A DNA stretch of 64,000 nucleotides from Eledone cirrhosa (GCA_964016885.1 OZ024744.1:132556001-132620000), one strand, 5' to 3'; positions 1 to 31,462 are shown, counted from the stretch's first letter. A program made the numbers and translations. Notes: generated from the letters alone by a model not told the origin.

Positions 1-3000
1 GTTAAGTTGGGGTTAAGTTAAGTTGGGGTTAGGTTAAGTTGGGGATAAGTTAAGTTGGGGATAATTTAAGTTGGGGTTAAGTTAAGTTGGGTTTAAGTTA
101 AGCTGGGGTTAAGTTAAGTTGGGGTTAAATTAAGTTGGGGTTAAGTTAAGTTGGGGTTAAGTTAAGTTTGGGTTAGGTTAAGTTGGGGATTAGTTAAGTT
201 GGGGATAAGTTAAGTTGGGGTTAAGTTAAGTTGGGTTTAAGTTAAGTTGTGGTTAAGTTAAGTTGGGGTTAAGTTAAGTTGGGGCTTAAGTTAAGTTGGG
301 GTTAGGTTAAGTTGGGGATAAGTTAAGTTGGGGATAATTTAAGTTGGGGTTAAGTTAAGTTGGGTTTAAGTTAAGCTGGGGTTAAGTTAAGTTGGGGTTA
401 AATTAAGTTGGGGTTAAGTTAAGTTGGGGTTAAGTTAAGTTTGGGTTAGGTTAAGTTGGGGATTAGTTAAGTTGGGGATAAGTTAAGTTGGGGTTAAGTT
501 AAGTTGGGTTTAAGTTAAGTTGTGGTTAAGTTAAGCTGGGGTTAAGTTAAGTTGGGGTTAAATTAAGTTGGGGTTAATTTAAGTTGGGGTTAAGTTAAGT
601 TGGGGTTCAGTTAAGTTGGGGATAAGTCAAGTTGGGGTTAAGTTAAGTTGGGGTTAAGTTAAGTTGGGGTTAGGTTAAGTTGGGGATAAATTAAGTTGGG
701 GATAAGCTAAGTTGGGGTTAAGTTAAGTTGGGTTTAAGTTAAGTTGGGGTTAAGTTAAGTTGGGGTTAAATTAAGTTGGAGATAAGTTAAGCTGGGGTTA
801 AATTAAGTTGGGGTTAAGTTAAGTTGGGGTTAGGTTAAGTTGGGGTTAACCCCAACTTAACTTAACCCCAACTTAACTTAGCCCCAACTTCACTCAACCC
901 CAACTTAACTTAACCCCAACTTCACTCAACCCCAACTTAACTCAACCCCAACTTAATTTAACCCCAACTTAACTTAACCCTAACTTAACTTAACCCCGAC
1001 TTAACTTAACCCCGACTTAACTTAACCCCAACTTAACTTAACCCCAACTTAACTTAACCCCAACTTAACTTAATCCCAACTTGACTTAACCCCAACTTAA
1101 CGCACACCCAACTTAACTTACCCCCAACTTAACTTAACCCCAAAATCGGAGTTACGTTAAGTTGGGGTTAAGTTAAGTTAGGCTTAACTTAAGTTGGGCT
1201 TAAGTTAAGTTGGGGGTAAGTTAAGTTGGGGGTAAGTTAAGTTGGGGTTAATTTAAGTTGGGGTTAAGTTAAGTGGTGGTTATGTTAAGTTGGGGTTAAG
1301 TTAAGTTGGGGTTAAATTAAGTTGGGGTTAAGTTAAGTTGGGTGTAAGTTAAGTTGGGGTTGAGTGAAGTTGGGGTTAAGTTAAGTTGGGGTTAAGTAGA
1401 GTTGGGGTTAAGTTAAGTTGGGGTTAAGTTAAGTTGGTGTTAAGTTGGGGTTAAGTTAAGTTGGGGTTAAGTTGGGGTTAAGTTAAGTGGTGGTTATGTT
1501 AAGTTGGGGTTAACTTAAGTTGGGGTTAATTTAAATTGGGGTTAAGTTAACTTTGTGGTTAAGTTAAGTTGGGGTTAAGTTAAGTTGGGGTTAAGTTAAG
1601 TTGGGGTTGAGGGAAGTTGGGGTTAAGTTAAGTTGGGGTTAACTTAAGTTGGGTTTAACTTAAGTTGCGGTTAAGTTAAGTTAGGGTTAAGTTAAGTTGG
1701 GGTTAAGTTAAGTCGGGGTTAAGTTAAGTTGGGGTTGAGTTAAGTTGGGGTTAATTTAAGTTGAGGTTATGTTAAGTTGGGGTTAATTTAAGTTGGGGTT
1801 AAGTTAAGTTGGGGTTAAGTTAAGTTGGGGTTAATTTAAGTTGGGGTTAAGTTCAGTTGGGGTTAATTTAAGTTGGGGTTAAGTTAAGTTGGGTTTAAGT
1901 TAAGTTGGGGTTAAATTAAGTTGGGGTTAAATTAAGTTGGGGTTAAGTTAAGTTGGGGTTAGGTTAAGTTGGGGATAAGTTAAGTTGGGGATAAGCTAAG
2001 TTGGGGTTAAGTTAAGTTGGGTTTAAGTTAAGTTGGGGTTAAGTTAAGTCGGGGTTATGTTAAGTCGGTGTTAAGTTAAGTTAGGGTTAAGTTAAGTTGG
2101 GGTTAAGTTAAGTTGGGGTTGAGTTAAGTTGGGGTTGAGTTAAATTGGGGTTGAGTTAAGTTGGGGTTAAGTTAAGTTGGGGTTAAGTTAAGTTAGGGTT
2201 AAGTTAAGTTGGGGTTAAGTTAAGTTGGGGTTAAGTTAAGTTGGGGCTGAGTTAAGTTGGGTGTACGTTAAGTTGGGGTTGACTGAAGTTGGGGTTAAGT
2301 TAAGTTGGGGTTAAGTTAAGTTAGGGTTAATTTAAGTTGGGGTTATGTTAAGTTGGGGTTAAGTTAAGTTGGTGTTAAGTTGGGGGTAATTTAAGTGGTG
2401 GTTATGTTAAGTTGGGGTTAAGTTAAGTTGGGGTTAATTTAAATTGGGGTTAAGTTAACTTTGTGGTTAAGTTAAGTTGGAGTTAAGTTAAGTTGGAGTT
2501 AAGTTAAGTTGGGGTTGAGTGAAGTTGGGGTTAAGTTAAGTTGGGGTTAGCTTAAGTTGGGTTTGAGTTAAGTTGCGGTTAAGTTAAGTTGGGGTTAAGT
2601 TAAGTTGGGGTTAAGTTAAGTCGGGGTTAATTTAAGTTGGGGTTAAGTTAAGTTGGGGTTAATTTAAGTTGGGGTTAAGTTAAGTTTAGGTTAAGTTAAG
2701 TTGGGGTTAAATTAAGTTGGGGTTAAGTTAAGTTGGGGTTAAGTTAAGTTGGGGTTAGGTTAAGTTGGGGATAAGTTAAGTTGGGGATAAGTTAAGTTGG
2801 GGTTAAGTTAAGTTGGGTTTAAGTTAAGTTGGGGTTAAGTTAAGTTGGGGTTTAATTAAGTTGGGGTTGAGTTAAGTTGGGGTTGACTTAAGTTGGGCTT
2901 AAGTTAAGTTGGGGTTAAGTTAAGATGTGGTTAAGTTAAGTTGGGGTTAAGTTAAGTTGGGGTTAAATTAAGTTGGGGTTAAGTTAAGTTGGGGGTAAGG

Positions 3001-6000
3001 TAAATTGCTGGTAAGTTAAGTTGGGGGTAAGTTAAGATGGGGCTAAGTTAAGTTGGGGTTAAGTTAATTTGGGGTTAAGTTAAGTTAGGGTTAAGTTAAG
3101 TTGGGGTTGACTTAAGTTGGGGTTAAGTTAAGTTGGGGTTATGTTAAGTTGGGTTTAAGTTAAGTTGGGGTTAAGTTAAGTTGGGGTTAAGTTAAGTTGG
3201 GGTTAAGTTAAGTTGGGGTTAAGTTAAGTTGGGATTAAGTTAAGTTGGGGTTAAGTTAAGTTGGGGTTAAATTAAGTTGGGGTTAAGTTAAGTTGGGGTT
3301 AATTTAAGTTGGGGTTAAGTTAAGTTGGGGTTGAGTTAAGTTGGGGGTAAGTTAAGTTGGGGGTAAGTTAAGTTGGGTGTAAGTTAAGATGGGGTTAAGT
3401 TAAGTTGGAGTTAAGTTATTTTGGGGTTAAGTTAAGTTGGGAGTAAGTTAAGTTGGTGATAAGTTAAGTTGGGGGTAAGTTAAGTTGGGGTTAAGTTAAG
3501 TTGGGTTAAGTTGGGGTTAAGTTAAGTTAGGGTTAAGTTAAGTTGGGGTTGAGTTAAGTTGGGGTTAAGTTAAGAGGTGGTTATGTTCAGTTGGGGTTAA
3601 GTTAAGTTGGGGTTAAGTTAAGTTGGGGTTAAGTTAAGTTGGGGTTAAGATAAGTTGGGGTTAAGTTAAGTTGGGGTTGAGTTAAGTTGGGGTTGAGTTA
3701 ATTTGGGGTTAAGTTAAGTTGGGGTTAACTTAATTTGGGTTTAATTTAAGTTGGGGTTAAGTTAAGTTGGGGTTAAATTAAGTTGGGATTAAGTTAAGTT
3801 GGGTGTACGTTAAGTTGGGGTTGACTGAAGTTGGGGTTAAGTTAAGTTGGGGTTAAGTAGAGTTGGGGTTAATTTAAGTTGGGGTTAAGTTAAGTTGGTG
3901 TTAAGTTGGGGTTAAGTTAAGTTGGGGTTAAGTTGGGGTTAAGTTAAGTGGTGGTTATGTTAAGTTGGGGTTAAGTTAAGTTGGGGTTAATTTAAATTGG
4001 GGTTAAGTTAACTTTGTGGTTAAGTTAAGTTGGAGTTAAGTTAAGTTGGGGTTAAGTTAAGTTGGGGTTGAGTGAAGTTGGGGTTAATTTAAGTTGGGGT
4101 TCAGTTAAGTTGGGGTTAAGTTAAGTTGGGGTTGAGTTAAGTTGGGGTTAATTTAAGTTGAGGTTATTTTAAGTTGGGGTTAAGTTAAGTTGGGGTTAAG
4201 TTAAGTTGGGGTTAAGTTAAGTTGGGGTTAAGTTAAGTTGGGGTTAAGTTAAGTTGGGTTTAAGTTAAGTTGGGGTTAAATTAAGTGGGGGTTAAATTAA
4301 AGTGGGGTTAAGTTAAGTTGGGGGTAAGTTAAGTTGGGGGCAAGTTAAGTTGGTGTTAAGTTAAGTTGGGGTTAAGTTAAGTTGGGGTTAAGTTAAGTTG
4401 GGTTAAATTAAGTTGGGACTAAGTTAAGTTAGGGCTAAGTTCAGTTGGGGTAAAGTTAAGTTGGGGCTAAGTTAAGTTGGGTATAAGTTGAGTTGGGGTT
4501 AAGTTAAGTTGGGGTTAAGTTAAGTTGGGGTTAAATTAAGTTGGGGTTAATTAAGTTGGGGTTAAGTTAAGTTGGGGTTAAGTTAAGTTGGGGTTAATTT
4601 AAGTTGGGGTTGTGTTAATTTGGGGTTAAGTTAAGTTGGGGTTATATTAAGTTGGGTTTAAGTTAAGTTGGGGTTAAGTTAAGTTGGGGTTAAGTTAAGT
4701 TAGGGTTAATTTAAGTTGGGGTTATGTTAAGTTGGGGTTAAGTTAAGTTGGGGTTAAGTAGAGTTGGGGTTAATTTAAGTTGGGGTTAAGTTAAGTTGGT
4801 GTTAAGTTGGGGTTAAGTTAAGTTGGGGTTAAGTTGGGGTTAAGTTGAGTGGTGGTTATGTTAAGTTGGGGTTAAGTTAAGTTGGGGTTAATTTAAATTG
4901 GGGCTAAGTTAACTTTGTGGTTAAGTTAAGTTGGAGTTAAGTTGGGGTTAAGTTAAGTTGGGGTTGAGTGAAGTTGGGGTTAAGTTAAGTTGGGGTTAAC
5001 TTAAGTTGGGGTTAAGTTAAGTTGGGGTTAAATTAAGTTGGGGTTAAATTAAGGTGGGGTTAAGTTAAGTTGGGGGTAAGTTAAGTTGGGGGCAAGTTAA
5101 GTTGGTGTTAAGTTAAGTTGGGGTTAAGTTAAGTTGGGGTTAAGTTAAGTTGGGTTTAAGTTAAGTTGGGACTAAGTTAAGTTAGGGCTAAGTTAAGTTG
5201 GGGTTAAGTTAAGTTGGGGCTAAGTTAAGTTGGGTCTAAGTTGAGTGGTGGTTATGTTAAGTTGGGGTTAAGTTAAGTTGGGGTTAATTTAAATTGGGGT
5301 TAAGTTAAGTTGGGGTTAAGTTAAGTTGGGGTTAAATTAAGTTGGGGTTAATTAAGTTGTGGTTAAGTTAAGTTGGGGTTAAGTTAAGTTGGGGTTAATT
5401 TAAGTTGGGGTTGTGTTAAGTTGGGGTTAAGTTAAGTTGGGGATAAGTTAAGTTGGGGTTAAGTTAAGTTGGGGGTAAGTTAAGTTGGTGGTAAGTTAAG
5501 TTGGGGTTAAGTTAAGTTGGGGTTAATTTAAATTGGGGTTAATTTAACTTTGTGGTTAAGTTAAGTTGGGGTTTATTTAAGTTGGGTTTAAGTTAAGTTG
5601 GGGTTGAGTTAAGTTGGGGTTGAGTGAAGTTGGGGTTAAGTTAAGTCGGGGTTAATTTAAGTTGGGGTTGAGTTAAGTCGGGGCTAATTTAAGTTGGGGC
5701 TAAGTTAATTTGTGGTTAAGTTAAGTTGGGGTTAAGTTAAGTTGGGGTTAAGTTAAGTTGGGGGTAAGTTAAGTTGGGGGCAAGATAAGTTGGGGTTAAG
5801 TTAAGTTGCGGTTAAGTTAAGTTGGGGTTAAGTTAAGTTGGGTTTAAGTTAAGTTGGGGTTCAGTTAAGTTGGGGTTAATTTAAGTTGGGGTTAAGTTAA
5901 GTTGGGGTTGAGTTAAGTTGGGGTTTAATTAAGTTGGGGTTGAGTTAAGTTGGGGTTGAGTTAAGTGGGGGTTGAGTTAAGTTGGGGTTAAGCTAAGTTG

Positions 6001-6266
6001 GGGTTAAGTTAAATTGAGGTTAAGTTAACTTGGGTTTGAGTTAAGTTGGGGTTAAGTTAAGTTGGTGTTAAGTTCAGTTCAGGTTAAGTTAACTTGGGGT
6101 TAAGTTAAGTTGGGGTTGAGTTAAGTTGGGGTTGAGTTAAGTTGGGGTTAAGTTAAGTTGGGGTTAACTTAAGTTGGGGTTAAGTTAAGTTGGGGTTAAT
6201 TTAAGTTGGGGTTCAGTTAAATTGAGGTTAAGATAACTTGGGTTTGCGTTAAGATGGGGTTAAGTT
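1..6266 (+). repeat. Satellite A array 1: 16-bp tandem repeat GGGGTTAAGTTAAGTT (G-rich on +), continues off the left edge
   Basis: Continuous 16-bp periodicity with point variants (GGGGATAAG, GTTAGGTT, TGAGTGAAG, GTGGTGGTTATG, GTAGAG) and occasional 11-bp monomers lacking one GTTAA. Confidence 0.99.
848..1143 (-). repeat. Inverted satellite-A cassette, class alpha
   Basis: Starts at palindrome GGGGTT|AACCCC (842-853), reads AACTTAACTTAACCCC, ends CCCCAA|AATCGGAGTTACG; diagnostic variants TTAGCCCC and CGCACACCC. Confidence 0.97.
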
Positions 6267-6982
6267 AGGTTTTTCGAAAACCTTATATAATCATTTTTAT
6301 TTAGGTTCTTCGAAACACCTTATATAATCAATTTTTTTAGGTTTTTCGAAAAACCTTATATAATCAATTTTTTAATACTTTTAGAAATATTTATATATGA
6401 TTTCAAATATTGATTTTATTAGGTTTTTGGAATAATCAATTTTTTTTACGTTTTTCGAAAAATGTTATATAATCAATTTTTTTTAGGTTTTTCGATTCAA
6501 TTCAATTTTTATAATCAAATATTTTTAGGTTTTTAGAAAAACCTTATATAATCAAATTTTTTTAGGTTTTTCGAAAAACCTTATATAATTAATTTTTTTA
6601 TACTTTTAGAAATATTTATATCTGATTTCAAATATTGGATTTTTTAGGTTTTTCGATAATCAATTTTTTTTAGATTTTTCGAAAAATCTTATATAATCAA
6701 TTTTTTTACGTTTTTAGAAAGACCTTATATAATCAATTTTTTCATACTTTTAGAAATATTTATATCTGATTTCAAATATTGATTTTTTTTTTAGGTTTTT
6801 CGAAATACCTTATATAATCAATTTTTTTTAGGTTTTTCAAATTACTTTATATAATCAATTTTTTTTATCTGATTTCAAATATTGATTTTTTTAGCTTTTT
6901 CGACAAAATCTTATATAATCAATTTTTTTTAGGTTTTTCGAAAAAGAATGAATTTGAGTTCATAGTCGAAATATATACTTCT

Positions 6983-7039
6983 GCATTAATCTTTTTACGT
7001 TTTTTTGATTTTTTTTAAAAAAACGTAAAAAATTAATGC
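6983..7039. other. Stem-loop in satellite-B core (GCATTAATCTTTTTACGTTTTTTT...AAAAAAACGTAAAAAATTAATGC), repeated in most B units
   Basis: About 23-bp inverted repeat with one bulged C and a short T-rich loop, read directly. Confidence 0.9.
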
Positions 7040-10000
7040 TTTTACAAATCTTTTGAAATATTTACTTTCTAGTTTCAAATTTTGCAGATTAAATTTTTCT
7101 CGAAAAACCTAAAAAATCAGTTGTCGAAATCAGAAGTTAATATTTCGAAAAACGCAATTTGAAAAACTCATATTAATTTTTTTTCGAAAACTTATTATAT
7201 AATCAATTTTTTTATACTTTTAGAAATATTTATATCTGATTTCAAATATTGATTTTTTTAGGTTTTTCGAAAACCCTATATAATCAATTTTTTTGTACTT
7301 TTAGAAATATCTATATCTGATTTCATGTATTGATTTTTTTATATTTTTCGAAAAAGCTTAGATAATCAATTTTTTTAGGTCTTTCGAAAACATTATATAA
7401 TCAATTTTTTTTTAGGTTTTTCGAAAAAACCTTATATAATCAATTTTTTTTAGGTTTTTCAAATATTGATTTTTTTAGCTTTTTCGACAAAATCTTATAT
7501 AATCAATTTTTTTTAGGTTTTTCGAAAAAGAATGAATTTGAGTTCATAGTCGAAATATATACTTCTGCATTAATCTTTTTACGTTTTTTTGATTTTTTTA
7601 AAAAAACGTAAAAAATTAATGCTTTTACAAATCTTTTGAAATATTTACTTTCTAGTTTCAAATTTTGCAGATTAAATTTTTCTCGAAAAACCTAAAAAAT
7701 CAGTTGTCGAAATCAGAAGTTAATATTTCGAAAAACGCAATTTGAAAAACTCATATTAATTTTTTTTCGAAAACATTATATAATCAATTTTTTAGAAATA
7801 TTTATATCTGATTTCAAATATTGATTTTTTTAGGTTTTTCGAAAACCCTATATAATCAATTTTTTTGTACTTTTAGAAATATCTATATCTGATTTCATGT
7901 ATTGATTTTTTTATATTTTTCGAAAAATCTTATATAATCAATTTTTTTACGTTTTTAGAAAAACCTTATATAATCAATTTTTTTTAGGTTTTTCGAAAAA
8001 CCTTATATAATCAATTTTTTTATGTTTTTTCGAAAAATCTTATATAATCAATTTTTTTACGTTTTTAGAAATATCTATATCTGATTTCAAATATTGATTT
8101 TTTTTAGATTTTTCGAAATACCTTATATAATCAATTTTTTTTAGGTTTTTCAAATTACCTTATATAATCAATTTTTTTTATCAGATTTCAAATATTGATT
8201 TTTTTAGCTTTTTCGACAAAATCTTATATAATCAATTTTTTTTAGGTTTTTCGAAAAAGAATGAATTTGAGTTCATAGTCGAAATATATACTTCTGCATT
8301 AATCTTTTTACGTTTTTTTGATTTTTTTTAAAAAAACGTAAAAAATTAATGCTTTTACAAATCTTTTGAAATATTTACTTTCTAGTTTCAAATTTTGCAG
8401 ATTAAATTTTTCTCGAAAAACCTAAAAAATCAGTTGTCGAAATCAGAAGTTAATATTTCGAAAAACGCAATTTGAAAAACTCATATTAATTTTTTTTCGA
8501 AAACATTATATAATCAATTTTTTTTTAGGTTTTTCGAAAAAACCTTATATAATCAATTCTTTTTTTGGTTTTTTCGAAAAATCTTATATAATCAATTTTT
8601 TTACGTTTTTAGAAAAACCTTATATAATCAATTTTTTTTAGATTTTTCAAAAAACCTTATATAATCAATTTTTTTTAGGTTTTTCGAAAAACCTTATATA
8701 ATCAATTTTTTTTGTTTTTTTGAAAAATCTTATATAATCAATTTTTTTACGTTTTTAGAAATATTTATATCTGATTTCAAATATTGATTTTTTTTAGGTT
8801 TTTCGAATTACCTTATATAATCAATTCTTTTTTTGGTTTTTTCGAAAAATCTTATATAATCAATTTTTTTACGTTTTTAGAAAAACCTTATATAATCAAT
8901 TTTTTTTAGATTTTTCAAAAAACCTTATATAATCAATTTTTTTTGTTTTTTTGAAAAATCTTATATAATCAATTTTTTTACGTTTTTAGAAATATTTATA
9001 TCTGATTTCAAATATTGATTTTTTTTAGATTTTTCGAAACACCTTATATAATCAATTTTTTTTAGGTTTTTCAAATTACCTTATATAATCAATTTTTTTT
9101 ATCTGATTTCAAATATTGATTTTTTTAGCTTTTTCGACAAAATCTTATATAATCAATTTTTTTTAGGTTTTTCGAAAAAGAATGAATTTGAGTTCATAGT
9201 CGAAATATATACTTCTGCATTAATCTTTTTACGTTTTTTTAATTTTTTTTAAAAAAACGTAAAAAATTAATGCTTTTACAAATCTTTTGAAATATTCACT
9301 ATCTAGTTTCAAATTTTGCAGATTAAATTTTTCTCGAAAAACCTAAAAAATCAGTTGTCGAAATCAGAAGTTAATATTTCGTAAAACGCAATTTGAAAAA
9401 CTCATTAATTTTTTTTCGAAAACTTATTATATAATCAATTTTTTTATACTTTTAGAAATATTTATATCTGATTTCAAATATTGATTTTTTTAGGTTTTTC
9501 GAAAACCCTATATAATCAATTTTTTTGTACTTTTAGAAATATCTATATCTGATTTCATGTATTGATTTTTTTATATTTTTCGAAAAAGCTTAGATAATCA
9601 ATTTTTTTAGGTCTTTCGAAAACCTTATATAATCAATTTTTTTTTAGGTTTTTCGAAAAAACCTTATATGATCAATTTTTTTTAGGTTTTTTCTAAAAAT
9701 CTTATATAATCAATTTTTTTTAGGTTTTTCGAAAAACCTTATATAATCAATTTTTTTTGTTTTTTCGAAAAATCTTATATAATTAATTTTTTTACGTTTT
9801 TAGAAATATTTATATCTGATTTCAAATATTGATTTTTTTTAGATTTTTCGAAATACCTTATATAATCAATTTTTTTTAGGTTTTTCAAATTACCTTATAT
9901 AATCAATTTTTTTTATCAGATTTCAAATATTGATTTTTTTAGCTTTTTCGACAAAATCTTATATAATCAATTTTTTTTAGGTTTTTCGAAAAAGAATGAA

Positions 10001-11480
10001 TTTGAGTTCATAGTCGAAATATATACTTCTGCATTTTTACGTTTTTTTGATTTTTTTTAAAAAAACGTAAAAAATTAATGCTTTTACAAATCTTTTGAAA
10101 TATTTACTTTCTAGTTTCAAATTTTGCAGATTAAATTTTTCTCGAAAAACCTAAAAAATCAGTTGTCGAAATCAGAAGTTAATATTTCGAAAAACGCAAT
10201 TTGAAAAACTCATATTAATTTTTTTTCGAAAACATTATATAATCAATTTTTTAGAAATATTTATATCTGATTTCAAATATTGATTTTTTTAGGTTTTTCG
10301 AAAACCCTATATAATCAATTTTTTTGTACTTTTAGAAATATCTATATCTGATTTCATGTATTGATTTTTTTATATTTTTCGAAAAATCTTATATAATCAA
10401 TTTGTTTACGTTTTTAGAAAAACCTTATATAATCAATTTTTTTTGTTTTTTCTAAAAATCTTATATAATCAATTTTTTTTAGGTTTTTCGAAAAACCTTA
10501 TATAATCAATTTTTTTATGTTTTTTCGAAAAATCTTATATAATCAATTTTTATACGTTTTTAGAAATATTTATATCTGATTTCAAATATTGATTTTTTTT
10601 AGATTTTTCGAAATACCTTATATAATCAATTTTTTTTAGGTTTTTCAAATTACCTTATATAATCAATTTTTTTTATCTGATTTCAAATATTGATTTTTTT
10701 AGCTTTTTCGACAAAATCTTATATAATCAATTTTTTTTAGGTTTTTCGAAAAAGAATGAATTTGAGTTCATAGTCGAAATATATACTTCTGCATTAATCT
10801 TTTTACGTTTTTTTGAAAAAATTAATGCTTTTACAAATCTTTTGAAATATTTACTTTCTAGTTTCAAATTTTGCAGATTAAATTTTTCTCGAAAAACCTA
10901 AAAAATCAGTTGTCGAAATCAGAAGTTAATATTTCGAAAAACGCAATTTGAAAAACTCATATTAATTTCTTTTCGAAAACATTATATAATCAATTTTTTA
11001 GAAATATTTATATCTGATTTCAAATATTGATTTTTTTAGGTTTTTCGAAAACCCTATATAATCAATTTTTTTGTACTTTTAGAAATATCTATATCTGATT
11101 TCATGTATTGATTTTTTTATATTTTTAGAAAAAGCTTAGATAATCAATTTTTTTAGGTCTTTCGAAAACCTTATATAATCAATTTTTTTTTAGGTTTTTC
11201 GAAAAAACCTTATATAATCATTATTTTTTAGGCTTTTTCGAAAAATCTTATATAATCAATTTTTTTACGTTTTTCGAAAAAACTTATATCAATTTTTTTT
11301 AGGTTTTTCAAAAAACCTTATATAATCAATTTTTTTTAGGTTTTTCGAAAAACCTTATATAATCAATTTTTTTTGTTTTTTCAAAAAATCTTATATAATC
11401 AATTTTTTTACGTTTTTAGAAATATTTATATCTTATTTCAAATATTGATTTTTTTTAGATTTTTCGAAATACCTTATATA

Positions 11481-11544
11481 ATCAATTTTTTTTAGGTTTT
11501 TCAAATCACCATAAGATAATTTGAAAAACCTAAAAAAAATTGAT
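11481..11544. other. Perfect 26-bp inverted repeat with 12-nt loop
   Basis: ATCAATTTTTTTTAGGTTTTTCAAAT (11481-11506), loop CACCATAAGATA, ATTTGAAAAACCTAAAAAAAATTGAT (11519-11544). Confidence 0.95.
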
Positions 11545-12245
11545 CTGATTTCAAATATTGATTTTTTTAGCTTTTTCGACAAAATCTTATATAATCAATT
11601 TTTTTTAGGTTTTTCGAAAAAGAATGAATTTGAGTTCATAGTCGAAATATATACTTCTGCATTAATCTTTTTACGTTTTTTTGAAAAAATTAATGCTTTT
11701 ACAAATCTTTTGAAATATTTACTTTCTAGTTTCAAATTTTGCAGATTAAATTTTTCTCGAAAAACCTAAAAAATCAGTTGTCGAAATCAGAAGTTATATC
11801 TCGTAAAACGCAATTTGAAAAACTCATATTAATTTTTTTTCGAAAACTTATTATATAATCAATTTTTTTATACTTTTAGAAATATTTATATCTGATTTCA
11901 AATGTTGATTTTTTTAGGTTTTTCGAAAACCCTATATAATCAATTTTTTTGTACTTTTAGAAATATCTATATCTGATTTCATGTATTGATTTTTTTATAT
12001 TTTTCGAAAAAGCTTAGATAATCAATTTTTTTAGGTCTTTCGAAAACCTTATATAATCAATTTTTTTTTAGGTTTTTCGAAAAAACCTTATATAATCAAT
12101 TTTTTTTAGGTTTTTTCGAAGTATCTTATATAATCAATTTTTTTACGTTTTTAGAAATATTTATATCTGATTTCAAATATTGATTTTTTTTAGATTTTTC
12201 GAAATACCTTATATAATCAATTTTTTTTAGGTTTTTCAAATTACC

Positions 12246-12420
12246 CCGACTTAACCCCGACTTAACTTAACCCCAACTTAACTTAACCCCAACTTAACTT
12301 AACCCCAACTTGACTTAACCCCAACATAACTCACACCCAACTTAACTTACCCCCAACTTAACTTAACCCCAACTTGACTTAACCCCAACTTAACTTAACC
12401 CCAACTTAACTTAACGCCAA
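12246..12420 (-). repeat. Inverted satellite-A cassette, class delta (truncated, abuts B island)
   Basis: Begins at CAAATTACC|CCGACTTAACCCCGAC; ends TTAACGCCAA|AGTCGGAGTT. Confidence 0.96.
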
Positions 12421-14445
12421 AGTCGGAGTTAAGTTAAGTTGGGGTTAAGCTAAGTTGGGGGTAAGTTAAGTTGGGGGTAAGTTAAATTGGGGTTAAGTTA
12501 AGTTGGGGTTGAGTGAAGTTGGGGTTAAGTTAAGTTGGGGTTAAGTTAAGTTAGGGTTAATTTAAGTTGGGGTTAAGTTAAGTTGGGGTTAACTTAAGTT
12601 GGGGTTAAGTTAAGTTGGGGTTAATTTAGGTTGGGGTTAAGTTAAGTTGGGGTTAAGATAAGTTGGGGTTAAGTTAAATTGAGATTAAGTTAACTTGGGT
12701 TTGAGTTAAGTTGGGGATAAGTCAAGTGGTGGTTATGTTAAGTTGGGGTTAAGTTAAGTTGGGGTTAAATTAAGTTGGGGTTAAGTTAAGTTGGGTGTGA
12801 GCTAAGTTGGGGTTGAGTGAAGTTGGGGTTAAGTTAAGTTGGGGTTAAGTAGAGTTGGGGTTAAGTTAAGTTGGGGTTAAGTTAAGTTGGTGTTAAGTTG
12901 GGGTTAAGTTAAGTTGGGGTTAAGTTAAGTTGGGGTTGAGTGAAGTTGGGGTTAAGTTAAGTTGGGGTTAAATTAAGTTGGGGTTAACTTAAGTTGGGTT
13001 TAAGTTAAGTTGCGGTTAAGTTAAGTTGGGGTTAAGTTAAGTTGGGGTTAAGTTAAGTCGGGGTTAAGTTAAGTTGGGGTTGAGTTAAGTTGGGGTTATT
13101 TTAAGTTGAGGTTATGTTAAGTTGGGGTTAATTTAAGTTGGGGTTAAGTTAAGTTGGGGTCAATTTAAGTTGGGGTTAAGTTCAGTTGGGGTTAATTTAA
13201 GTTGGGGTTAAGTTAAGTTGGGTTTAAGTTAAGTTGGGTTTAAGTTAAGTTGGGGTTAAGTTAAGTTGGGTTTAAGTTAAGTTGGGGCTAAGTTAAGTTG
13301 GGTCTAATTTGAGTTGGGGTTAAGTTAAGTTGGGGTTAAGTTAAGTTGAGGTTAAATTAAGTTGGGGTTAATTAAGTTGGGGTTAAGTTAAGTTGGGGTT
13401 AAGTTAAGTTGAGGTTAAGTTAACTTGGGGTTAAGTTAAGTTGGGGTTAAGTTAAGTTGGGGTTGAGTTAAGTTGGGGTTGAGTTAAGTTGGGGTTAAGT
13501 TAAGTTGGGGTTAAGTTAAGTTGGGGTTAAGTTAAGTTGGGGTTAATTTAAGTTCGGGTTAAGTTAAGTTCGGGGTAAGCTAAGTTGGGGTTCAGTTAAA
13601 TCGGGTCTAAGTTAAGTGGGAGGTTAAGTTAAGTTGGGGTTGAGTTAAGTTGTGGTTAAGTTAACTTGGGGTTAAGTTAAGTTAAGTTTGAGTTAAGTTG
13701 GGGTTAAGTTGGGGTTAAGTTAAGTTGGGGTTAAGTTACGTTGGGGTTAAGTTAAGTTGGGGTTAAGTTGAGGTTAAGTTAAGTTGTGGTTAAGTTAAGT
13801 TGGGGCTAAGTTAAGTTGGGGCTAAGTTAATTTGGGGTTAAGTTAAGTTGGGGTTAATTTAAGTTGGGGTTAGGTTAAGTTGGGGATAAGTTAAGTTGGG
13901 GATAAGTTAAGTTGGGGTTAAGTTAAGTTGGGTTTAAGTTAAGCTGGGGTTAAGTTAAGTTGGGGTTAAATTAAGTTGGGGTTAAGTTAAGTTTGGGTTA
14001 GGTTAAGTTGGGGATAAGTTAAGTTGGGGATAAGTTAAGTTGGGGTTAAGTTAAGTTTGGTTTAAGTTAAGTTGGGGTTAAGTTAAGTTGGGGTTAAGTT
14101 AAGTTGGGGTTAAGTTAAGTTGCGGTTAGTTAAGTTGAGTTTAAGTTAAGTTGGGGTTAATTTAAGTTGGGGTTAAGTTAAGTTGGGGTTCAGTTCAGTT
14201 GGGGTTAAGTCAAGTTGGGGTTAAGTTAAGTTGGGGTTAAGTTAAGTTGGGGTTAGGTTAAGTTGGGGATAATTTAAGTTGGGGATAAGCTAAGTTGGGG
14301 TTAAGTTAAGTTGGGTTTAAGTTAAGTTGGGGTTAAGTTAAGTTGGGGTTAAATTAAGTTGGGGTTAAGTTAAGCTGGGGTTAAATTAAGTTGGGGTTAT
14401 GTTAAGTTGGGGTTAAGTTAAGTTGGGGTTAGTTTAAGTGGGGTT

Positions 14446-14790
14446 AACCCCAACTTAACTTAACCCCAACTTAACTTAACCCCAACTTCACTCAACCCCA
14501 ACTTAAATTAACCCCAACTTCACTCAACCCCAACTTAACTCAACCCCAACTTAAATTAACCCCAACTTAACTTAACCCTGACTTAACTTAACCCCGACTT
14601 AACTTAACCCCGACTTAACTTAACCCCAACTTAACTTAAACCCCAACTTAACTTAACCCCAACTTAACTTAACCCCAACTTGACTTAACCCCAACTTAAC
14701 TCACACCCAACTTAACTTACCCCTAACTTAACTTAACCACAACTTGACGTAAACCCAACTTAACTTAACCCCAACTTAACTTAACCCCAA
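14446..14790 (-). repeat. Inverted satellite-A cassette, class beta
   Basis: GGGGTT|AACCCC start; diagnostic CCCTGAC and GACGTAAACCC; ends CCCCAA|AGTCGGAGTTCAG. Confidence 0.96.
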
Positions 14791-15449
14791 AGTCGGAGTT
14801 CAGTTAAGTTGGGGTTCAGTTAAGTTAGGCTTAACTTAAGTTGGGGTTGAGTTAAGTTGGGGGTAAGTTAAGTTGGGGGTAAGTTAAGTTGGGGTTAAGT
14901 TAAGTTGGGGTTAAGTTGGGGTTAAGTTAAGTTAGGGTTAAGTTAAGTTGGGGTTGACTTAAGTTGGGGTTAAGTTAAGTGGTGGTTATGTTAAGTTGGG
15001 GTTAAGTTAAGTTGGGGTTAAATTAAGTGGGGTTAACTTAAGTTGGGTGTAAGTTAAGTTGGGGTTGAGTGAAGTTGGGGTTAAGTTAAGTTGGGGTTAA
15101 GTTAAGTTAGGGTTAATTTAAGTTGGGGTTATGATAAGTTGGTGTTAAGTTAAGTTGGGGTTAAGTCGAGTTGGGGTTAAGTTAAGTTGGGGTTAAGTTA
15201 AATTGGTGTTAAGTTAAGTTGGGGTTAAGTTAAGTTGGGGTTAGTTAAGTTGAGTTTAAGTTAAGTTGGGGTTAATTTAAGTTGGGGTTAAGTTAAGTTG
15301 GGGTTCAGTTAAGTTGGGGTTAAGTTAAGTTGGGGTTGAGTTAAGTTGTGGTTAAGTTAAGTTGGGGTTAGGTTAAGTTGGGGTTAAGTTAAGCTGGGGT
15401 TAAATTAAGTTGGGGTTAAGTTAAGTTGGGGTTAGGTTAAGTTGGGGTT

Positions 15450-15714
15450 AACCCCAACTTCACTCAACCCCAACTTAACTTAACCCCAACTTCACTCAAC
15501 CCCAACTTAACTCAACCCCAACTTAACTTAACCCCAACTTAACTTAACCCTAACTTAACTTAACCCCGACTTAAACTTAACCCCGACTTAACTTAACCCC
15601 AACTTAACTTAACCCCAACTTAACTTAACCCCAACTTAACTTAATCCCAACTTGACTTAACCCCAACTTAACTCACACCCAACTTAACTTACCCCCAACT
15701 TAACTTAACCCCAA
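15450..15714 (-). repeat. Inverted satellite-A cassette, class gamma
   Basis: GGGGTT|AACCCCAACTTCACTC start; diagnostic CGACTTAAACTT; ends CCCCAA|AGTCGGAGTTAAG. Confidence 0.96.
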
Positions 15715-18700
15715 AGTCGGAGTTAAGTTAAGTTGGGGTTAAGTTAAGTTAGGCTTAACTTAAGTTGGGGTTAAGTTAAGTTGGGGGTAAGTTAAGTTGG
15801 GGGTAAGTTAAGTTGGGGTTAAGTTAAGTTGGGGTTAAGATAAGTGGTGGTTATGTTAAGTTGAGGTTAAGTTAAGTTAGGGTTAAATTAAGTTGGGGTT
15901 AAGTTAAGTTGGGTGTAAGTTAAGTTGGGGTTGAGTGAAGTTGGGGTTAAGTTAAGTTGGGGTTAAGTAGAGTTGGGGTTAAGTTAAGTTGGGGTTAAGT
16001 TAAGTTGGTGTTAAGTTGGGGTTAAGTTAAGTTGGGGTTAAGTTGGGGTTAAGTTAAGTGGTGGTTATGTTAAGTTGGGGTTAACTTAAGTTGGGGTTAA
16101 TTTAAATTGGGGTTAAGTTAACTTTGTGGTTAAGTTAAGTTGGGGTTAAGTTAAGTTGGGGTTAAATTAAGTTGGGGTTGAGTGAAGTTGGGGTTAAGTT
16201 AAGTTGGGGTTAAGTTAAGTTGGGGTTAACTTAAGTTGGGTTTAAGTTAAGTTGCGGTTAAGTTAAGTTGGGGTTAAGTTAAGTTGGGGTTAAGTTAAGT
16301 CGGGGTTAATTTAAGTTGGGGTTGAGTTAAGTTGGGGTTAATTTAAGTTGAGGTTATGTTAAGTTGGGGTTAATTTAAGTTGGGGTTAAGTTAAGTTGGG
16401 GTTAAGTTAAGTTGGGGTTAATTTAAGTTGGGATTAAGTTCAGTTGGGGTTAAATTAAGTTGGGGTTAAGTTAAGCTGGGGTTAAATTAAGTTGGGGTTA
16501 AGTTAAGTTGGGGTTAAGTTAAGTTGGGGTTAAGTTAAGTTAGGGTTAATTTAAGTTGGGGTTATGTTAAGTTGGGGTTAAGTTAAGTTGGGGTTAAGTC
16601 GAGTTGGGGTTAAGTTAAGTTGGGGTTAGTTAAGTTGAGTTTAAGTTAAGTTGGGGTTAATTTAAGTTGGGGTTAAGTTAAGTTGGGGTTCAGTTAAGTT
16701 GGGGTTAAGTTAAGTTGGGGTTAAGTTAAGTTGGTTTAAGTTAAGTTGGGGTTAGGTTAAGTTGGGGATAAGTTAAGTTGGGGATAAGCTAAGTTGGGGT
16801 TAAGTTAAGTTGGGTTTAAGTTAAGTTGGGGTTAAGTTAAGTTAGGCTTAACTTAAGTTGGGGTTAAGTTAAGTTGGGGGTAAATTAAGTTGGGGGTAAG
16901 TTAAGTTGGGGTTAAGTTAAGTTGGGGTTAAGTTAAGTGGTGGTTATGTTAAGTTGGGGTTAAGTTAAGTTGGGGTTAAATTAAGTTGGGGTTAAGTTAT
17001 GTTGGGTGTAAGTTAAGTTGGGGTTGAGTGAAGTTGGGGTTAAGTTAAGTTGGGGTTAAGTTAAGTTAGGGTTAATTTAAGTTGGGGTTATGTTAAGTTG
17101 GGGTTAAGTTAAGTTGGGGTTAAGTAGAGTTGTAGTTAAGTTAAGTTGGGGTTAAGTTAAGTTGGTGTTAAGTTGGGGTTAAGTTAAGTTGGGGTTAAGT
17201 TAAGTCGGGGTTAAGTTAAGTTGGGGTTGAGTTAAGTTGGGGTTAATTTAAGTTGAGGTTATGTTAAGTTGGGGTTAATTTAAGTTGGGGTTAATTTAAG
17301 TTGGGGTTAAGTTAAGTTGGGGTTAAGTTGAGGTTAAGTTAAGTTGTGGTTAAGTTAAGTTGGGGCTAAGTTAAGTTGGGGCTAAGTTAAGTTGGGGCTA
17401 AGTTAAGTTGGGGTTAAGTTAAGTTGGGGTTAAGTTAAGTTGGGTTTAATTTAATTTGGGGTCAACTTAAGTTGGGGTTAAGTTGAGTTGGGGTTAAATT
17501 AAGTTGGGGTTAATTTAAGTTGGGGCTAAGTTAAGTTGGGGCTGAGTTAAGTTGGGGTTAAGTTAAGTTGGGGTTAAGTTAAGTTGGGGTTAAGTTAATT
17601 TTGGGTTAAGTTAAGTTGTGGTTCAGTTAAGTTGGGGTTAAGTTAAGTTTGGGTTAATTTGGGGTTAAATTAAGTTGGGGTTAAGTTAAGTTGGGGTTAA
17701 GTTAAGTTGGGGTTAAGTTAAGTTGGGGTTAATTTAAGTTGGGGTTAAGTTAAGTCGGGGTTAAGTTAAGTCGGTGTTAAGTTAAGTTAGGGTTAAGTTA
17801 AGTTGGGGTTAAGTTAAGTTGGCTTTAAGTTAAGCTGGGGTTAAGTTAAGTTGGGGTTAAATTAAGTTGGGGTTAAGTTAAGTTGGGGTTAGGTTAAGTT
17901 TGGGTTAGGTTAAGTTGGGGTTAAATTAAGTTGGGGTTAAGTTAAGTTGGGGTTAAGTTAAGTTGGGGTTAGGTTAAGTTGGGGATAAGTTAAGTTGGGG
18001 ATAATTTAAGTTGGGGTTAAGTTAAGTTGGGTTTAAGTTAAGCTGGGGTTAAGTTAAGTTGGGGTTAAATTAAGTTGGGGTTAAGTTAAGTTGGGGTTAA
18101 GTTAAGTTTGGGTTAGGTTAAGTTGGGGATTAGTTAAGTTGGGGATAAGTTAAGTTGGGGTTAAGTTAAGTTGGGTTTAAGTTAAGTTGTGGTTAAGTTA
18201 AGTTGGGGTTAAGTTAAGTTGGGGCTTAAGTTAAGTTGGGGTTAGGTTAAGTTGGGGATAAGTTAAGTTGGGGATAATTTAAGTTGGGGTTAAGTTAAGT
18301 TGGGTTTAAGTTAAGCTGGGGTTAAGTTAAGTTGGGGTTAAATTAAGTTGGGGTTAAGTTAAGTTGGGGTTAAGTTAAGTTTGGGTTAGGTTAAGTTGGG
18401 GATTAGTTAAGTTGGGGATAAGTTAAGTTGGGGTTAAGTTAAGTTGGGTTTAAGTTAAGTTGTGGTTAAGTTAAGCTGGGGTTAAGTTAAGTTGGGGTTA
18501 AATTAAGTTGGGGTTAATTTAAGTTGGGGTTAAGTTAAGTTGGGGTTCAGTTAAGTTGGGGATAAGTCAAGTTGGGGTTAAGTTAAGTTGGGGTTAAGTT
18601 AAGTTGGGGTTAGGTTAAGTTGGGGATAAGTTAAGTTGGGGATAAGCTAAGTTGGGGTTAAGTTAAGTTGGGTTTAAGTTAAGTTGGGGTTAAGTTAAGT

Positions 18701-18787
18701 TGGGGTTAAATTAAGTTGGAGATAAGTTAAGCTGGGGTTAAATTAAGTTGGGGTTAAGTTAAGTTGGGGTTAGGTTAAGTTGGGGTT

Positions 18788-19083
18788 AACCCCAACTTAA
18801 CTTAACCCCAACTTAACTTAGCCCCAACTTCACTCAACCCCAACTTAACTTAACCCCAACTTCACTCAACCCCAACTTAACTCAACCCCAACTTAAGTTA
18901 ACCCCAACTTAACTTAACCCTAACTTAACTTAACCCCGACTTAACTTAACCCCGACTTAACTTAACCCCAACTTAACTTAACCCCAACTTAACTTAACCC
19001 CAACTTAACTTAATCCCAACTTGACTTAACCCCAACTTAACGCACACCCAACTTAACTTACCCCCAACTTAACTTAACCCCAA
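18788..19083 (-). repeat. Inverted cassette, class alpha
   Basis: Same junctions and variants as 848-1143 (offset 17940). Confidence 0.96.
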
Positions 19084-20702
19084 AATCGGAGTTACGTTAA
19101 GTTGGGGTTAAGTTAAGTTAGGCTTAACTTAAGTTGGGCTTAAGTTAAGTTGGGGGTAAGTTAAGTTGGGGGTAAGTTAAGTTGGGGTTAATTTAAGTTG
19201 GGGTTAAGTTAAGTGGTGGTTATGTTAAGTTGGGGTTAAGTTAAGTTGGGGTTAAATTAAGTTGGGGTTAAGTTAAGTTGGGTGTAAGTTAAGTTGGGGT
19301 TGAGTGAAGTTGGGGTTAAGTTAAGTTGGGGTTAAGTAGAGTTGGGGTTAAGTTAAGTTGGGGTTAAGTTAAGTTGGTGTTAAGTCGGGGTTAAGTTAAG
19401 TTGGGGTTGAGTTAAGTTGGGGTTATTTTAAGTTGAGGTTATGTTAAGTTGGGGTTAATTTAAGTTGGGGTTAAGTTAAGTTGGGGTCAATTTAAGTTGG
19501 GGTTAAGTTCAGTTGGGGTTAATTTAAGTTGGGGTTAAGTTAAGTTGGGTTTAAGTTAAGTTGGGGTTAAGTTAAGTTGGGGTTGAGTTAAGTTGGGTTT
19601 AAGTTAAGTTGGGGCTAAGTTAAGTTGGGTCTAATTTGAGTTGGGGTTAAGTTAAGTTGGGGTTAAGTTAAGTTGAGGTTAAATTAAGTTGGGGTTAATT
19701 AAGTTGGGGTTAAGTTAAGTTGGGGTTAAGTTAAGTTGAGGTTAAGTTAACTTGGGGTTAAGTTAAGTTGGGGTTAAGTTAAGTTGGGGTTGAGTTAAGT
19801 TGGGGTTGAGTTAAGTTGGGGTTAAGTTAAGTTGGGGTTAAGTTAAGTTGGGGTTAAGTTAAGTTGGGGTTAATTTAAGTTAAGTTTGAGTTAAGTTGGG
19901 GTTAAGTTGGGGTTAAGTTAAGTTGGGGTTAAGTTACGTTGGGGTTAAGTTAAGTTGGGGTTAAGTTGAGGTTAAGTTAAGTTGTGGTTAAGTTAAGTTG
20001 GGGCTAAGTTAAGTTGGGGCTAAGTTAATTTGGGGTTAAGTTAAGTTGGGGTTAATTTAAGTTGGGGTTAGGTTAAGTTGGGGATAAGTTAAGTTGGGGA
20101 TAAGTTAAGTTGGGGTTAAGTTAAGTTGGGTTTAAGTTAAGCTGGGGTTAAGTTAAGTTGGGGTTAAGTTGGGGTTAAGTTAAGTTAGGGTTAAGTTAAG
20201 TTGGGGTTGACTTAAGTTGGGGTTAAGTTAAGTGGTGGTTATGTTAAGTTGGGGTTAAGTTAAGTTGGGGTTAAATTAAGTGGGGTTAACTTAAGTTGGG
20301 TGTAAGTTAAGTTGGGGTTGAGTGAAGTTGGGGTTAAGTTAAGTTGGGGTTAAGTTAAGTTAGGGTTAATTTAAGTTGGGGTTATGATAAGTTGGTGTTA
20401 AGTTAAGTTGGGGTTAAGTCGAGTTGGGGTTAAGTTAAGTTGGGGTTAAGTTAAATTGGTGTTAAGTTAAGTTGGGGTTAAGTTAAGTTGGGGTTAGTTA
20501 AGTTGAGTTTAAGTTAAGTTGGGGTTAATTTAAGTTGGGGTTAAGTTAAGTTGGGGTTCAGTTAAGTTGGGGTTAAGTTAAGTTGGGGTTGAGTTAAGTT
20601 GTGGTTAAGTTAAGTTGGGGTTAGGTTAAGTTGGGGTTAAGTTAAGCTGGGGTTAAATTAAGTTGGGGTTAAGTTAAGTTGGGGTTAGGTTAAGTTGGGG
20701 TT

Positions 20703-20967
20703 AACCCCAACTTCACTCAACCCCAACTTAACTTAACCCCAACTTCACTCAACCCCAACTTAACTCAACCCCAACTTAACTTAACCCCAACTTAACTTAA
20801 CCCTAACTTAACTTAACCCCGACTTAAACTTAACCCCGACTTAACTTAACCCCAACTTAACTTAACCCCAACTTAACTTAACCCCAACTTAACTTAATCC
20901 CAACTTGACTTAACCCCAACTTAACTCACACCCAACTTAACTTACCCCCAACTTAACTTAACCCCAA
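20703..20967 (-). repeat. Inverted cassette, class gamma
   Basis: Matches 15450-15714 (offset 5253). Confidence 0.96.
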
Positions 20968-23900: not shown

Positions 23901-24040
23901 TAAGTTGGGGTTAAGTTAAGTTGGGTTTAAGTTAAGTTGGGGTTAAGTTAAGTTGGGGTTAAATTAAGTTGGAGATAAGTTAAGCTGGGGTTAAATTAAG
24001 TTGGGGTTAAGTTAAGTTGGGGTTAGGTTAAGTTGGGGTT

Positions 24041-24336
24041 AACCCCAACTTAACTTAACCCCAACTTAACTTAGCCCCAACTTCACTCAACCCCAACTTA
24101 ACTTAACCCCAACTTCACTCAACCCCAACTTAACTCAACCCCAACTTAAGTTAACCCCAACTTAACTTAACCCTAACTTAACTTAACCCCGACTTAACTT
24201 AACCCCGACTTAACTTAACCCCAACTTAACTTAACCCCAACTTAACTTAACCCCAACTTAACTTAATCCCAACTTGACTTAACCCCAACTTAACGCACAC
24301 CCAACTTAACTTACCCCCAACTTAACTTAACCCCAA
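24041..24336 (-). repeat. Inverted cassette, class alpha
   Basis: Ends CCCCAA|AATCGGAGTTACG; CGCACACCC variant. Confidence 0.96.
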
Positions 24337-26084: not shown

Positions 26085-26349
26085 AACCCCAACTTCACTC
26101 AACCCCAACTTAACTTAACCCCAACTTCACTCAACCCCAACTTAACTCAACCCCAACTTAACTTAACCCCAACTTAACTTAACCCTAACTTAACTTAACC
26201 CCGACTTAAACTTAACCCCGACTTAACTTAACCCCAACTTAACTTAACCCCAACTTAACTTAACCCCAACTTAACTTAATCCCAACTTGACTTAACCCCA
26301 ACTTAACTCACACCCAACTTAACTTACCCCCAACTTAACTTAACCCCAA
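26085..26349 (-). repeat. Inverted cassette, class gamma
   Basis: CGACTTAAACTT variant; ends CCCCAA|AGTCGGAGTTAAG. Confidence 0.96.
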
Positions 26350-31197: not shown

Positions 31198-31462
31198 AAC
31201 CCCAACTTCACTCAACCCCAACTTAACTTAACCCCAACTTCACTCAACCCCAACTTAACTCAACCCCAACTTAACTTAACCCCAACTTAACTTAACCCTA
31301 ACTTAACTTAACCCCGACTTAAACTTAACCCCGACTTAACTTAACCCCAACTTAACTTAACCCCAACTTAACTTAACCCCAACTTAACTTAATCCCAACT
31401 TGACTTAACCCCAACTTAACTCACACCCAACTTAACTTACCCCCAACTTAACTTAACCCCAA
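31198..31462 (-). repeat. Inverted cassette, class gamma
   Basis: Matches 15450-15714 (offset 15748). Confidence 0.96.

What the first reader, a model, noticed from the sequence alone, without database searches (positions are those of the whole stretch)
842..1155. Seventeen short inverted cassettes with two invariant junctions
Seen: 15 cassettes open at the perfect palindrome GGGGTT|AACCCC and 2 open at a B island. All 17 close with CCAA|A(G/A)TCGGAGTT, which is a CCCCAA(CTTA)AGTTGGGG junction missing 4 bp and joined to a doubly substituted monomer. I saw TCGGAG only at these junctions. The cassette does not mirror the variants of its immediate flank (the upstream TTAGG has no CCTAA mirror), so it is not a fresh fold-back. 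Inference: one ancestral inversion at the self-complementary TTAA diverged into four classes and was amplified. Each copy can pair with either flank into a ~300-bp hairpin or cruciform, or form dsRNA if transcribed. Retention every 1-5 kb, despite the known instability of palindromes, hints at a role in recombination or small-RNA silencing.
Basis: partly seen in the sequence, partly recalled or inferred. Interest (0 to 1): 0.75.

Follow-up and report, generated by a model that had tools for sequence, protein, structure and literature searches.

The report
Old satellite micro-inversion copied 800 times
The 17 short back-to-front pieces in this 16-base repeat array belong to a family of over 800 related copies, likely born from one old DNA-copying slip and likely carried along passively as the array duplicated, and a few copies sit at the ends of larger flipped blocks that they likely seeded.

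Summary
In detail: 17 inverted cassettes with the stated junctions sit in a 16-bp satellite. They belong to a family of at least 826 copies in an array of about 8 Mb on G000:C28. Invariance is local. Among 269 sampled copies there are 16 right-junction variants, only 75 carry TCGGAG, and lengths run 143-488 bp. Flanks are copied along with the cassettes in 5-39 kb duplications, so the fixed junctions likely reflect common descent. Two younger, independent cassette families (about 30 copies on C28, 3 on C18) have TTAA at both junctions and still mirror their left flank, the mark of a local template switch. All four longer strand flips found (0.8 kb to about 0.57 Mb) have a cassette body at one or both ends. 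One window cassette holds a 221-bp inverted tract copied from the forward array. Evidence for selected function is weak. The scan noted this family before on two other windows of the array (e1-10311094, e1-10311106).

The parts
1..62059 (+). Host satellite, 16-bp monomer TTGGGG-TTAAG-TTAAG, G-rich strand on +, interrupted by AT-rich islands; part of an array of about 8 Mb on G000:C28 (about 127.0-135.3 Mb)
842..1155 (-). Inverted cassette, 296-bp class; left junction GGGGTT|AACCCC (centre 847/848), right junction CCAA-AATCGGAG; perfect arm 14 bp
12240..12430 (-). Inverted cassette, island-linked class (184 bp); left junction replaced by the AT-rich island
14440..14800 (-). Inverted cassette, 345-bp class (second copy 30188-30548); perfect arm 7 bp
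15444..15724 (-). Inverted cassette, 265-bp class (other copies start 20697, 26079, 31192, 36574, 53434); perfect arm 11 bp
18782..19093 (-). Inverted cassette, 296-bp class (other copies start 24035, 34530, 39864; 280-bp variant at 56612)
50239..50429 (-). Second island-linked cassette (38-kb duplication of 12240)
52439..52902 (-). 448-bp cassette, a 345-class copy that has taken up forward-array sequence
52493..52713 (-). 221-bp tract inside the 448-bp cassette, exact reverse complement of a forward-array stretch present at 15991, 21244, 26626, 37121, 53981; likely an inverted conversion or exchange tract (other bodies match at most 59-71 bp)
16752..16852 (+). Cassette-free joint: sequence found 88 bp upstream of 296-class left junctions runs straight into the right-flank marker TTAGGCTTAAC; 6 copies (16842, 22095, 27477, 32590, 37972, 54832); likely one excision, then duplicated
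6274..12239 (+). AT-rich island of 37-bp repeats (also 45350-50238 and from 62060); joins the forward satellite at TTAGG and a cassette interior at CC
12432..35629 (+). Higher-order duplications that carry the cassettes (offsets 5253, 5382, 10495, 15748 bp; larger offsets 37999 and 39076 bp)

Best explanation
The cassettes are copies of one short inverted segment of the satellite that likely arose long ago by a local replication template switch at the monomer's self-complementary TTAA, were likely spread as passengers by tandem duplication of kilobase higher-order units, and likely act now and then as homologous U-turns that start larger inversions. Shown: one junction pair shared by all copies; copying together with flanks; divergence that rises with distance; two younger families with the template-switch mark; cassette bodies at the ends of four later flips; one inverted tract taken up. 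Inferred: the origin mechanism of this family (its own mirror is no longer visible), neutrality of the spread, and strand invasion as the route of the later flips. Mechanism of a flip: a C-rich 3' end finds same-sense homology only in a cassette body of a neighbouring or distant unit, synthesis runs through the junction into opposite-sense array, and it returns through a second homology or a TTAA microhomology.
For: Of 563 orientation junctions in 1.28 Mb of sampled satellite, 275 of 277 forward-to-reverse and 284 of 286 reverse-to-forward joints belong to this one pair, point variants included. The four lineages largely form clades; the window's TCGGAG clade holds 56 of 56 with support 0.88. 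Mean divergence is 3.7% under 10 kb, 4.4% at 10-100 kb, 6.4% at 0.1-1 Mb and 7.3% beyond. Flanks are identical between window copies of a class. Family 2 (C28 128.57-129.60 Mb, 29 and 30 junction hits): its marker occurs 31 times in all 172 sequences held, 16 directly left of the junction, 15 inside the body, 0 elsewhere, with up to 99 bp exact mirror. Family 3 (C18, 3 copies): same pattern, 67-74 bp mirror. Later flips: 131,323,651-131,326,148 (2.5 kb, left junction kept at one end, right junction flipped at the other, a whole cassette reversed between); 132,857,195-132,859,240 (2 kb); the block ending at 133,355,374, where a lone flipped right junction plus 2 body monomers runs into forward array and both outer flanks are of one array subtype; 128,584,724 (family 2, 838 bp plus island). 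Bodies are 5.4% of sampled C28 satellite; four events each touching one would have about 2e-4 probability if ends fell at random (rough).
Against: No forward donor of this family's body was found (best scores 20-25 against self-scores 61-134, apart from the flipped copy), and no mirror of the flank remains (1 of 269 left flanks carries the body's TGAAG marker), so the template-switch origin rests on analogy with families 2 and 3. No intact reciprocal junction exists on C28. The first monomer on each side of both junctions holds fewer distinct variants than the next ones (left 18 against 25, 29, 29, P about 0.03; right 17 against 23, 23, 29, P about 0.06); linkage decay and my junction filters can give this, but weak constraint is not excluded. 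The four flips are single-copy and were not checked in raw long reads. The assembly has gaps next to the window's contig, and the two reversed pieces on either side share 7,556 identical bases, so scaffolding errors exist here. The 2e-4 figure ignores that lone junctions were partly how events were found.
Confidence: 0.78

Rival explanations
1. The cassettes are selected structural landmarks: hairpins or cruciforms, or double-stranded RNA sources, that serve centromere or heterochromatin function, as proposed for Tribolium inversion sites.
For: Strong predicted folding with either flank; at least 826 copies; mild shortage of variants next to the junctions; both junction phases kept in nearly all sampled copies.
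Against: 16 right-junction variants; in the 131.25-131.96 Mb domain only 27 of 61 keep the 12-bp palindrome. No excess of mirrored variants between arms (7 seen, 7.05 expected). Density ranges from one per 2 kb to none over long stretches. Excised versions are amplified too. Other markers are as frequent.
Confidence: 0.1
2. The cassettes are selfish modifiers: breaks at their palindromes trigger repair that over-replicates cassette-bearing units, so they drive their own spread.
For: Copy number of 826 or more against about 30 and 3 for the other two families; recombination traces at cassettes.
Against: Copy number can follow age alone. Linked point variants are as abundant. Density falls to about one per 5-10 kb or less in the youngest-looking uniform lineage at 132.8-134.6 Mb. 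Secondary events are rare: 2 of 150 right junctions of one type and 1 of the 100 listed of another are flipped against their domain.
Confidence: 0.08
3. The cassette is a small mobile element using TTAA sites (piggyBac- or MITE-like) or the product of a TTAA-cutting enzyme with religation in either direction.
For: Five of the six junction types of the three families and both de novo switches are centred on TTAA; family 2 has TTAA on both sides of the insert.
Against: Bodies are pure satellite with no element-specific ends; flanks are co-inherited; similarity falls with distance; younger families mirror their own flank, which a mobile insert would not; TTAA is the only 4-bp inverted homology the monomer offers (sequence).
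Confidence: 0.02
4. The inversions are sequencing or assembly artefacts such as fold-back reads.
For: Palindromic left junction; gaps and a likely misplaced contig nearby.
Against: Hundreds of copies with lineage-specific variants ordered along the chromosome; right junction read in raw Illumina data of another individual.
Confidence: 0.02

Closest known systems
Macro-dyad symmetries with conserved inversion sites in Tribolium madens TmSat1/TmSat2 (PMC13081366) and T. freemani TfSat01/TfSat03 (PMC12581902); passages read
   Same: Orientation switches inside one satellite, a few junction types in very many copies, a degenerate monomer at one junction, no foreign sequence at the joint, hairpin potential, function proposed but untested.
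   Different: Here the reversed arm is only 143-488 bp (about 5% of the array) and both junctions travel as one cassette; listed copies are on one chromosome; junctions diverge by lineage; birth, loss and later flips can be traced.
Short-range template switch, four-point model (Walker et al. 2021, PMC7954356; abstract and first part of the Introduction read)
   Same: A reverse-complement fragment copied from a template tens to hundreds of bases away between two switch points, leaving an inverted repeat; seen directly in families 2 and 3.
   Different: Fragments are 150-490 bp, lie in a tandem satellite and were amplified afterwards; in the window's family the donor is no longer recognisable.
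Strand switches in human beta-satellite and HSat3 arrays, and inversions between inverted repeats (bioRxiv 10.64898/2026.07.22.740206; 12 of 14 passages read)
   Same: Many strand switches per array, read there as stochastic by-products of array expansion; larger inversions enriched for inverted homology at breakpoints.
   Different: Here the inverted homology is a short piece of the satellite itself and individual flips can be tied to it at monomer resolution.
Microinversions in the 21-bp pericentromeric satellite HintCl-18 of Hieracium alpinum (PMC11566620; 9 passages read)
   Same: Short-monomer satellite with forward and reverse blocks, repeated block-type units, template switching proposed.
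   Different: Those blocks have 150-300 bp linkers and their junctions were not traced to single origins in the passages read.
Inverted 'centroid' pairs in cichlid centromeres (PMC13652916; abstract and outline only)
   Same: Satellite blocks of alternating orientation tied to inverted elements.
   Different: Centroids are about 15 kb, transposon-like, one pair per centromere; these cassettes are sub-kilobase satellite pieces in hundreds of copies.

Membership tests
Tribolium-type satellite macro-dyad symmetry | Monomer orientation switches within one satellite, without foreign sequence at the joint | tested here: met
Tribolium-type satellite macro-dyad symmetry | Few junction types in many conserved copies | tested here: met
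   one junction pair in 559 of 563 sampled joints, though with 16 right-junction variants
Tribolium-type satellite macro-dyad symmetry | Multi-kilobase, roughly balanced direct and inverted subarrays | tested here: not met
   bodies 143-488 bp, 5.4% of sampled satellite
Tribolium-type satellite macro-dyad symmetry | Same junctions on several chromosomes | tested here: inconclusive
   all listed hits are on C28 and none on lower-numbered contigs with the satellite (C2, C18), but only the first 100 hits of each search are listed
Tribolium-type satellite macro-dyad symmetry | (Peri)centromeric location | not testable with these tools
   array ends about 1.2 Mb from the end of a 136.5-Mb contig; no chromatin data
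Short-range template-switch inversion (four-point model) | Inverted fragment is the reverse complement of a nearby template | tested here: inconclusive
   met for families 2 and 3; not seen for the window's family
Short-range template-switch inversion (four-point model) | Two switch points, with short identity at the joints | tested here: met
   TTAA at the left junction; TTAA at both junctions of families 2 and 3; right junction of the window's family has about 1 bp and is 4 bp short of the TTAA joint seen on C18
Homology-mediated inversion between inverted repeats (the later flips) | Breakpoints inside oppositely oriented homologous sequence | tested here: met
   4 of 4 flips have a cassette body at one or both ends
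Homology-mediated inversion between inverted repeats (the later flips) | Clean reciprocal products at both ends | tested here: not met
   the 2.5-kb flip lacks the middle of the body; two flips end in a new GTT|AAC joint and one inside an island, which fits strand invasion or template switching better than one crossover
TTAA-site mobile element (piggyBac/MITE type; features recalled) | Own terminal repeats, target duplication, new insertion sites with unrelated flanks | tested here: not met
   flanks co-inherited, body is host satellite, similarity decays with distance

The most novel reading that the evidence does not exclude
Short inverted cassettes are the U-turns of satellite arrays: born repeatedly at the monomer's own palindrome, they set where later strand switches occur, up to half-megabase blocks, and by provoking break repair they promote their own spread. 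Conserved inversion sites in satellites would then be a self-propagating architecture that needs no host function.
Probability: 0.2. Interest if true: 0.6.

Novelty: new member of a known kind. Interest (0 to 1): 0.3.

Why it matters
Conserved inversion junctions in satellite arrays have been read as signs of function (Tribolium papers). This array shows the neutral alternative step by step in one genome: three independent births at TTAA with 3, about 30 and over 800 copies, loss by excision, and re-use as breakpoints of later flips. It is a tidy test case for whether junction conservation needs selection and for how megabase satellite blocks change strand. The mechanisms themselves are known, and no function is shown.

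Tried and rejected
Search for a forward donor of the cassette body by monomer-variant alignment over 1.18 Mb: none. Arm-to-arm correction at the left palindrome: 7 mirrored variants of 224, 7.05 expected (254 of 269 copies in register). Residual mirror of the flank: 1 of 269. Intact palindromic or reciprocal right junctions: none on C28. Ungapped identities were uninformative because of monomer indels, and the self-BLAST printed nothing; shared 64-mer diagonals were used instead. Expression: no RNA holder listed; this says nothing about transcription. Runs X4-X6 (other organisms, small shares) hold the satellite, but no contig covers the right-junction base; contigs drop rare variants, so absence is not shown. 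'Opposite strand' joints were set aside because plain array reads give them on a two-orientation reference. In one search the one listed X1 contig over the right junction has under 31 letters on a side and does not count as bridging; X7, X9 and X8 had 5, 1 and 0 reads on that base. Literature: the monomer motif gave 9 unrelated papers; searches listed no paper on this satellite or on cassette-seeded flips inside a satellite. Supplements were not read, and those of the Tribolium papers may hold similar junction histories.

Full report
Observation. The window is a 16-bp satellite (TTGGGG TTAAG TTAAG) with three AT-rich islands of 37-bp repeats. TCGGAG occurs 17 times, only at right junctions; GGGGTTAACCCC occurs 15 times. 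Orientation mapping gives 17 reversed pieces, 15 opening at the palindrome and 2 at an island. They fall into four classes and 9 distinct sequences, and the flanks of a class are as identical as the junctions.

Setting. The window is G000:C28:132,556,001-132,620,000, inside an array running from about 127.0 to 135.3 Mb. The same satellite occurs on C2 and C18. I fetched 171 stretches; with the window they hold 1.53 Mb of satellite, about a fifth of the C28 array plus small samples elsewhere. Exact searches give 198 TCGGAG-type right junctions, 826 with a looser pattern, and 763 forward matches to the left junction. Only the first 100 places of each search are listed; all listed are on C28.

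One origin, local spread, no array-wide invariance. Of 563 orientation junctions in the first 1.28 Mb examined, 275 of 277 forward-to-reverse and 284 of 286 reverse-to-forward joints belong to this pair, point variants included. The other four are two new GTT|AAC joints and one partial duplication seen twice. Of 311 candidate cassettes, 271 had both junctions and 269 had full flanks. These show bodies of 143-488 bp, 16 right-junction variants and perfect arms of 0-57 bp; 75 carry TCGGAG and 219 keep the 12-bp left palindrome. TCGGGG is the common state and TCGGAG marks the window's clade (56 of 56, support 0.88), plus 19 copies in another lineage. Divergence rises from 3.7% under 10 kb to 7.3% beyond 1 Mb. 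Within the window the cassettes ride on duplications of 5.3, 10.5, 15.7, 38 and 39 kb. Arbitrary point variants occur 6-49 times in the same window. Six copies of a cassette-free joint, left flank fused to right flank, were amplified alongside. The fixed junctions therefore follow from descent (inference).

Birth. Two further, independent cassette families turned up. Family 2 (C28 128.57-129.60 Mb; 29 left and 30 right junction hits) joins GGGG-TTAA-CTTAACCCC on the left and CCCCAAC-TTAA-GTTAAG on the right. Its marker variant occurs 31 times in all sequence held: 16 just left of the junction, 15 inside the body, none elsewhere, with exact mirrors up to 99 bp. Family 3 (C18, 3 copies) has TTAA palindromes at both ends and mirrors its left flank over 67-74 bp. 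This is the local template-switch pattern described in PMC7954356 (abstract and first part of the Introduction read). The window's family shows no such mirror and no donor. Its left flanks differ between lineages, so the trace has likely been lost; its origin by the same route is inferred.

Later recombination. (a) The 448-bp window cassette holds a 221-bp exact reverse copy of a forward stretch found five times in the window; other bodies match at most 71 bp. (b) At 131,323,651-131,326,148 a 2.5-kb block is reversed between a retained left junction and a flipped right junction, with one whole cassette turned round inside; this accounts for the 2 reverse hits among 150 of that junction type. 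(c) At 132,857,195-132,859,240 a 2-kb block starts at a right junction whose body merges into the array and ends at a new GTT|AAC joint. (d) The large reversed block ends at 133,355,374 in a lone flipped right junction followed by two body monomers and then forward array. Its other end is the new joint at 131,964,581. The forward arrays on both outer sides share 45-49% of 40-mers, against 18-29% with the block, which resembles the 133.8-134.6 Mb domain. The window's own contig appears to be scaffolded into this block, because the two reversed pieces share 7,556 identical bases; the block is then about 0.57 Mb. (e) A family-2 body does the same at 128,584,724. A genome-wide search for the new joint type gave only those two sites on C28. 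So all four longer flips found touch a cassette body, although bodies are 5.4% of the sample. These events are single-copy and were not checked in long reads.

Function. Predicted folding is strong with either flank (-252 and -272 kcal/mol against -36 for plain array), but this is true of any inverted piece. There is no excess of mirrored variants across the left palindrome (7 against 7.05). The first monomer beside each junction has somewhat fewer distinct variants (18 against 25-29 and 17 against 23-29; P about 0.03 and 0.06; 254 and 170 of 269 copies were in register). That result runs against strict neutrality, but linkage decay and my junction filters would also produce it. Cassette density varies from one per 2 kb to none over 134 kb.

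Reality in reads. In run X7, another individual of the same species label, 13 raw reads cover the right-junction base and 8 of them, from 8 starts, carry a variant also present in the assembly.

Known relatives. Conserved, highly repeated inversion sites are described in Tribolium satellites, where function is proposed but untested (PMC13081366, 12 of 19 passages read; PMC12581902, 12 passages read). Those have multi-kilobase arms on many chromosomes, a feature not met here. Human beta-satellite and HSat3 strand switches are read as by-products of expansion. Microinversions are reported in a 21-bp plant satellite. Seven paper searches listed nothing on this satellite; supplements were not read. 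Earlier scan notes on two other windows of this array reached the same reading; they are not independent evidence. The two younger families and three of the flips are not mentioned in the lines of those notes that I saw.

Verdict. A real and well-resolved case of known processes: template-switch micro-inversion, passive amplification in higher-order repeats, and occasional inverted-repeat recombination. Selected function about 10%, self-drive under 10% as the main cause. Interest 0.3.

Noticed in passing
G000:C28:128,565,758-129,602,301 (L153, L161-L171): Second, independent inverted-cassette family (about 30 copies, 216-249 bp) with TTAA at both junctions that mirrors its left flank; one copy lies at the end of an inverted duplication that folds back inside an AT-rich island (128,584,724).
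   Followed up: yes
G000:C18:10,129,107; 10,132,207; 10,188,783 (L141, L142, L147): Third independent family, 3 copies of about 148 bp, palindromic TTAA junctions at both ends, mirrors its left flank.
   Followed up: yes
G000:C28:131,987,343-132,793,743: The contig holding the window lies between two 200-N gaps inside one reversed block whose two pieces share 7,556 identical bases; it most resembles the 124.60-124.69 Mb block. Likely a scaffolding misplacement.
   Followed up: partly
window 6274-12239, 45350-50238, 62060-64000: AT-rich islands of 37-bp repeats with a 230-bp more complex unit; a 35-bp probe has 366 matches, listed on C28 (128.5-129.6 and 132.0 Mb on) and twice on C18. Left edge is a constant TTAGG joint; right edges differ by domain.
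   Followed up: partly
L003:7838-8077, L005:7578-7817, L023:5176-5415: A 240-bp mini-array of the same 16-bp monomer sits inside a longer repeated unit at 124.69, 125.3 and 126.0 Mb; a possible dispersed source of the satellite.
   Followed up: no
G000:C2:209.2-209.46 Mb (L130-L132): Satellite blocks make up about half of the sequence here, interspersed with other DNA, all in one orientation, no cassette junction in 40 kb sampled.
   Followed up: partly
L001 and L002:1-4470: A different G-rich repeat (GGGGTTTAAGTCTAAG-like units) abuts the 16-bp array directly at a cassette body at 124.599 Mb.
   Followed up: no
G000:C28:133.30-133.355 Mb: This part of the reversed block contains 68% of the 40-mers of the 128.0 Mb sample, suggesting long-range exchange across 5 Mb.
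   Followed up: no
G000:C28:130,418,248 and 130,422,457: A 65-bp partial cassette plus 192 bp of left flank is duplicated in front of a full cassette, with a new CCCCAA|GTTGGGG joint.
   Followed up: partly
L003:7100-7800: A motif here resembles a short interspersed repeat recalled from octopus genomes (recalled, no call confirms it); an earlier scan note also guesses octopus.
   Followed up: no
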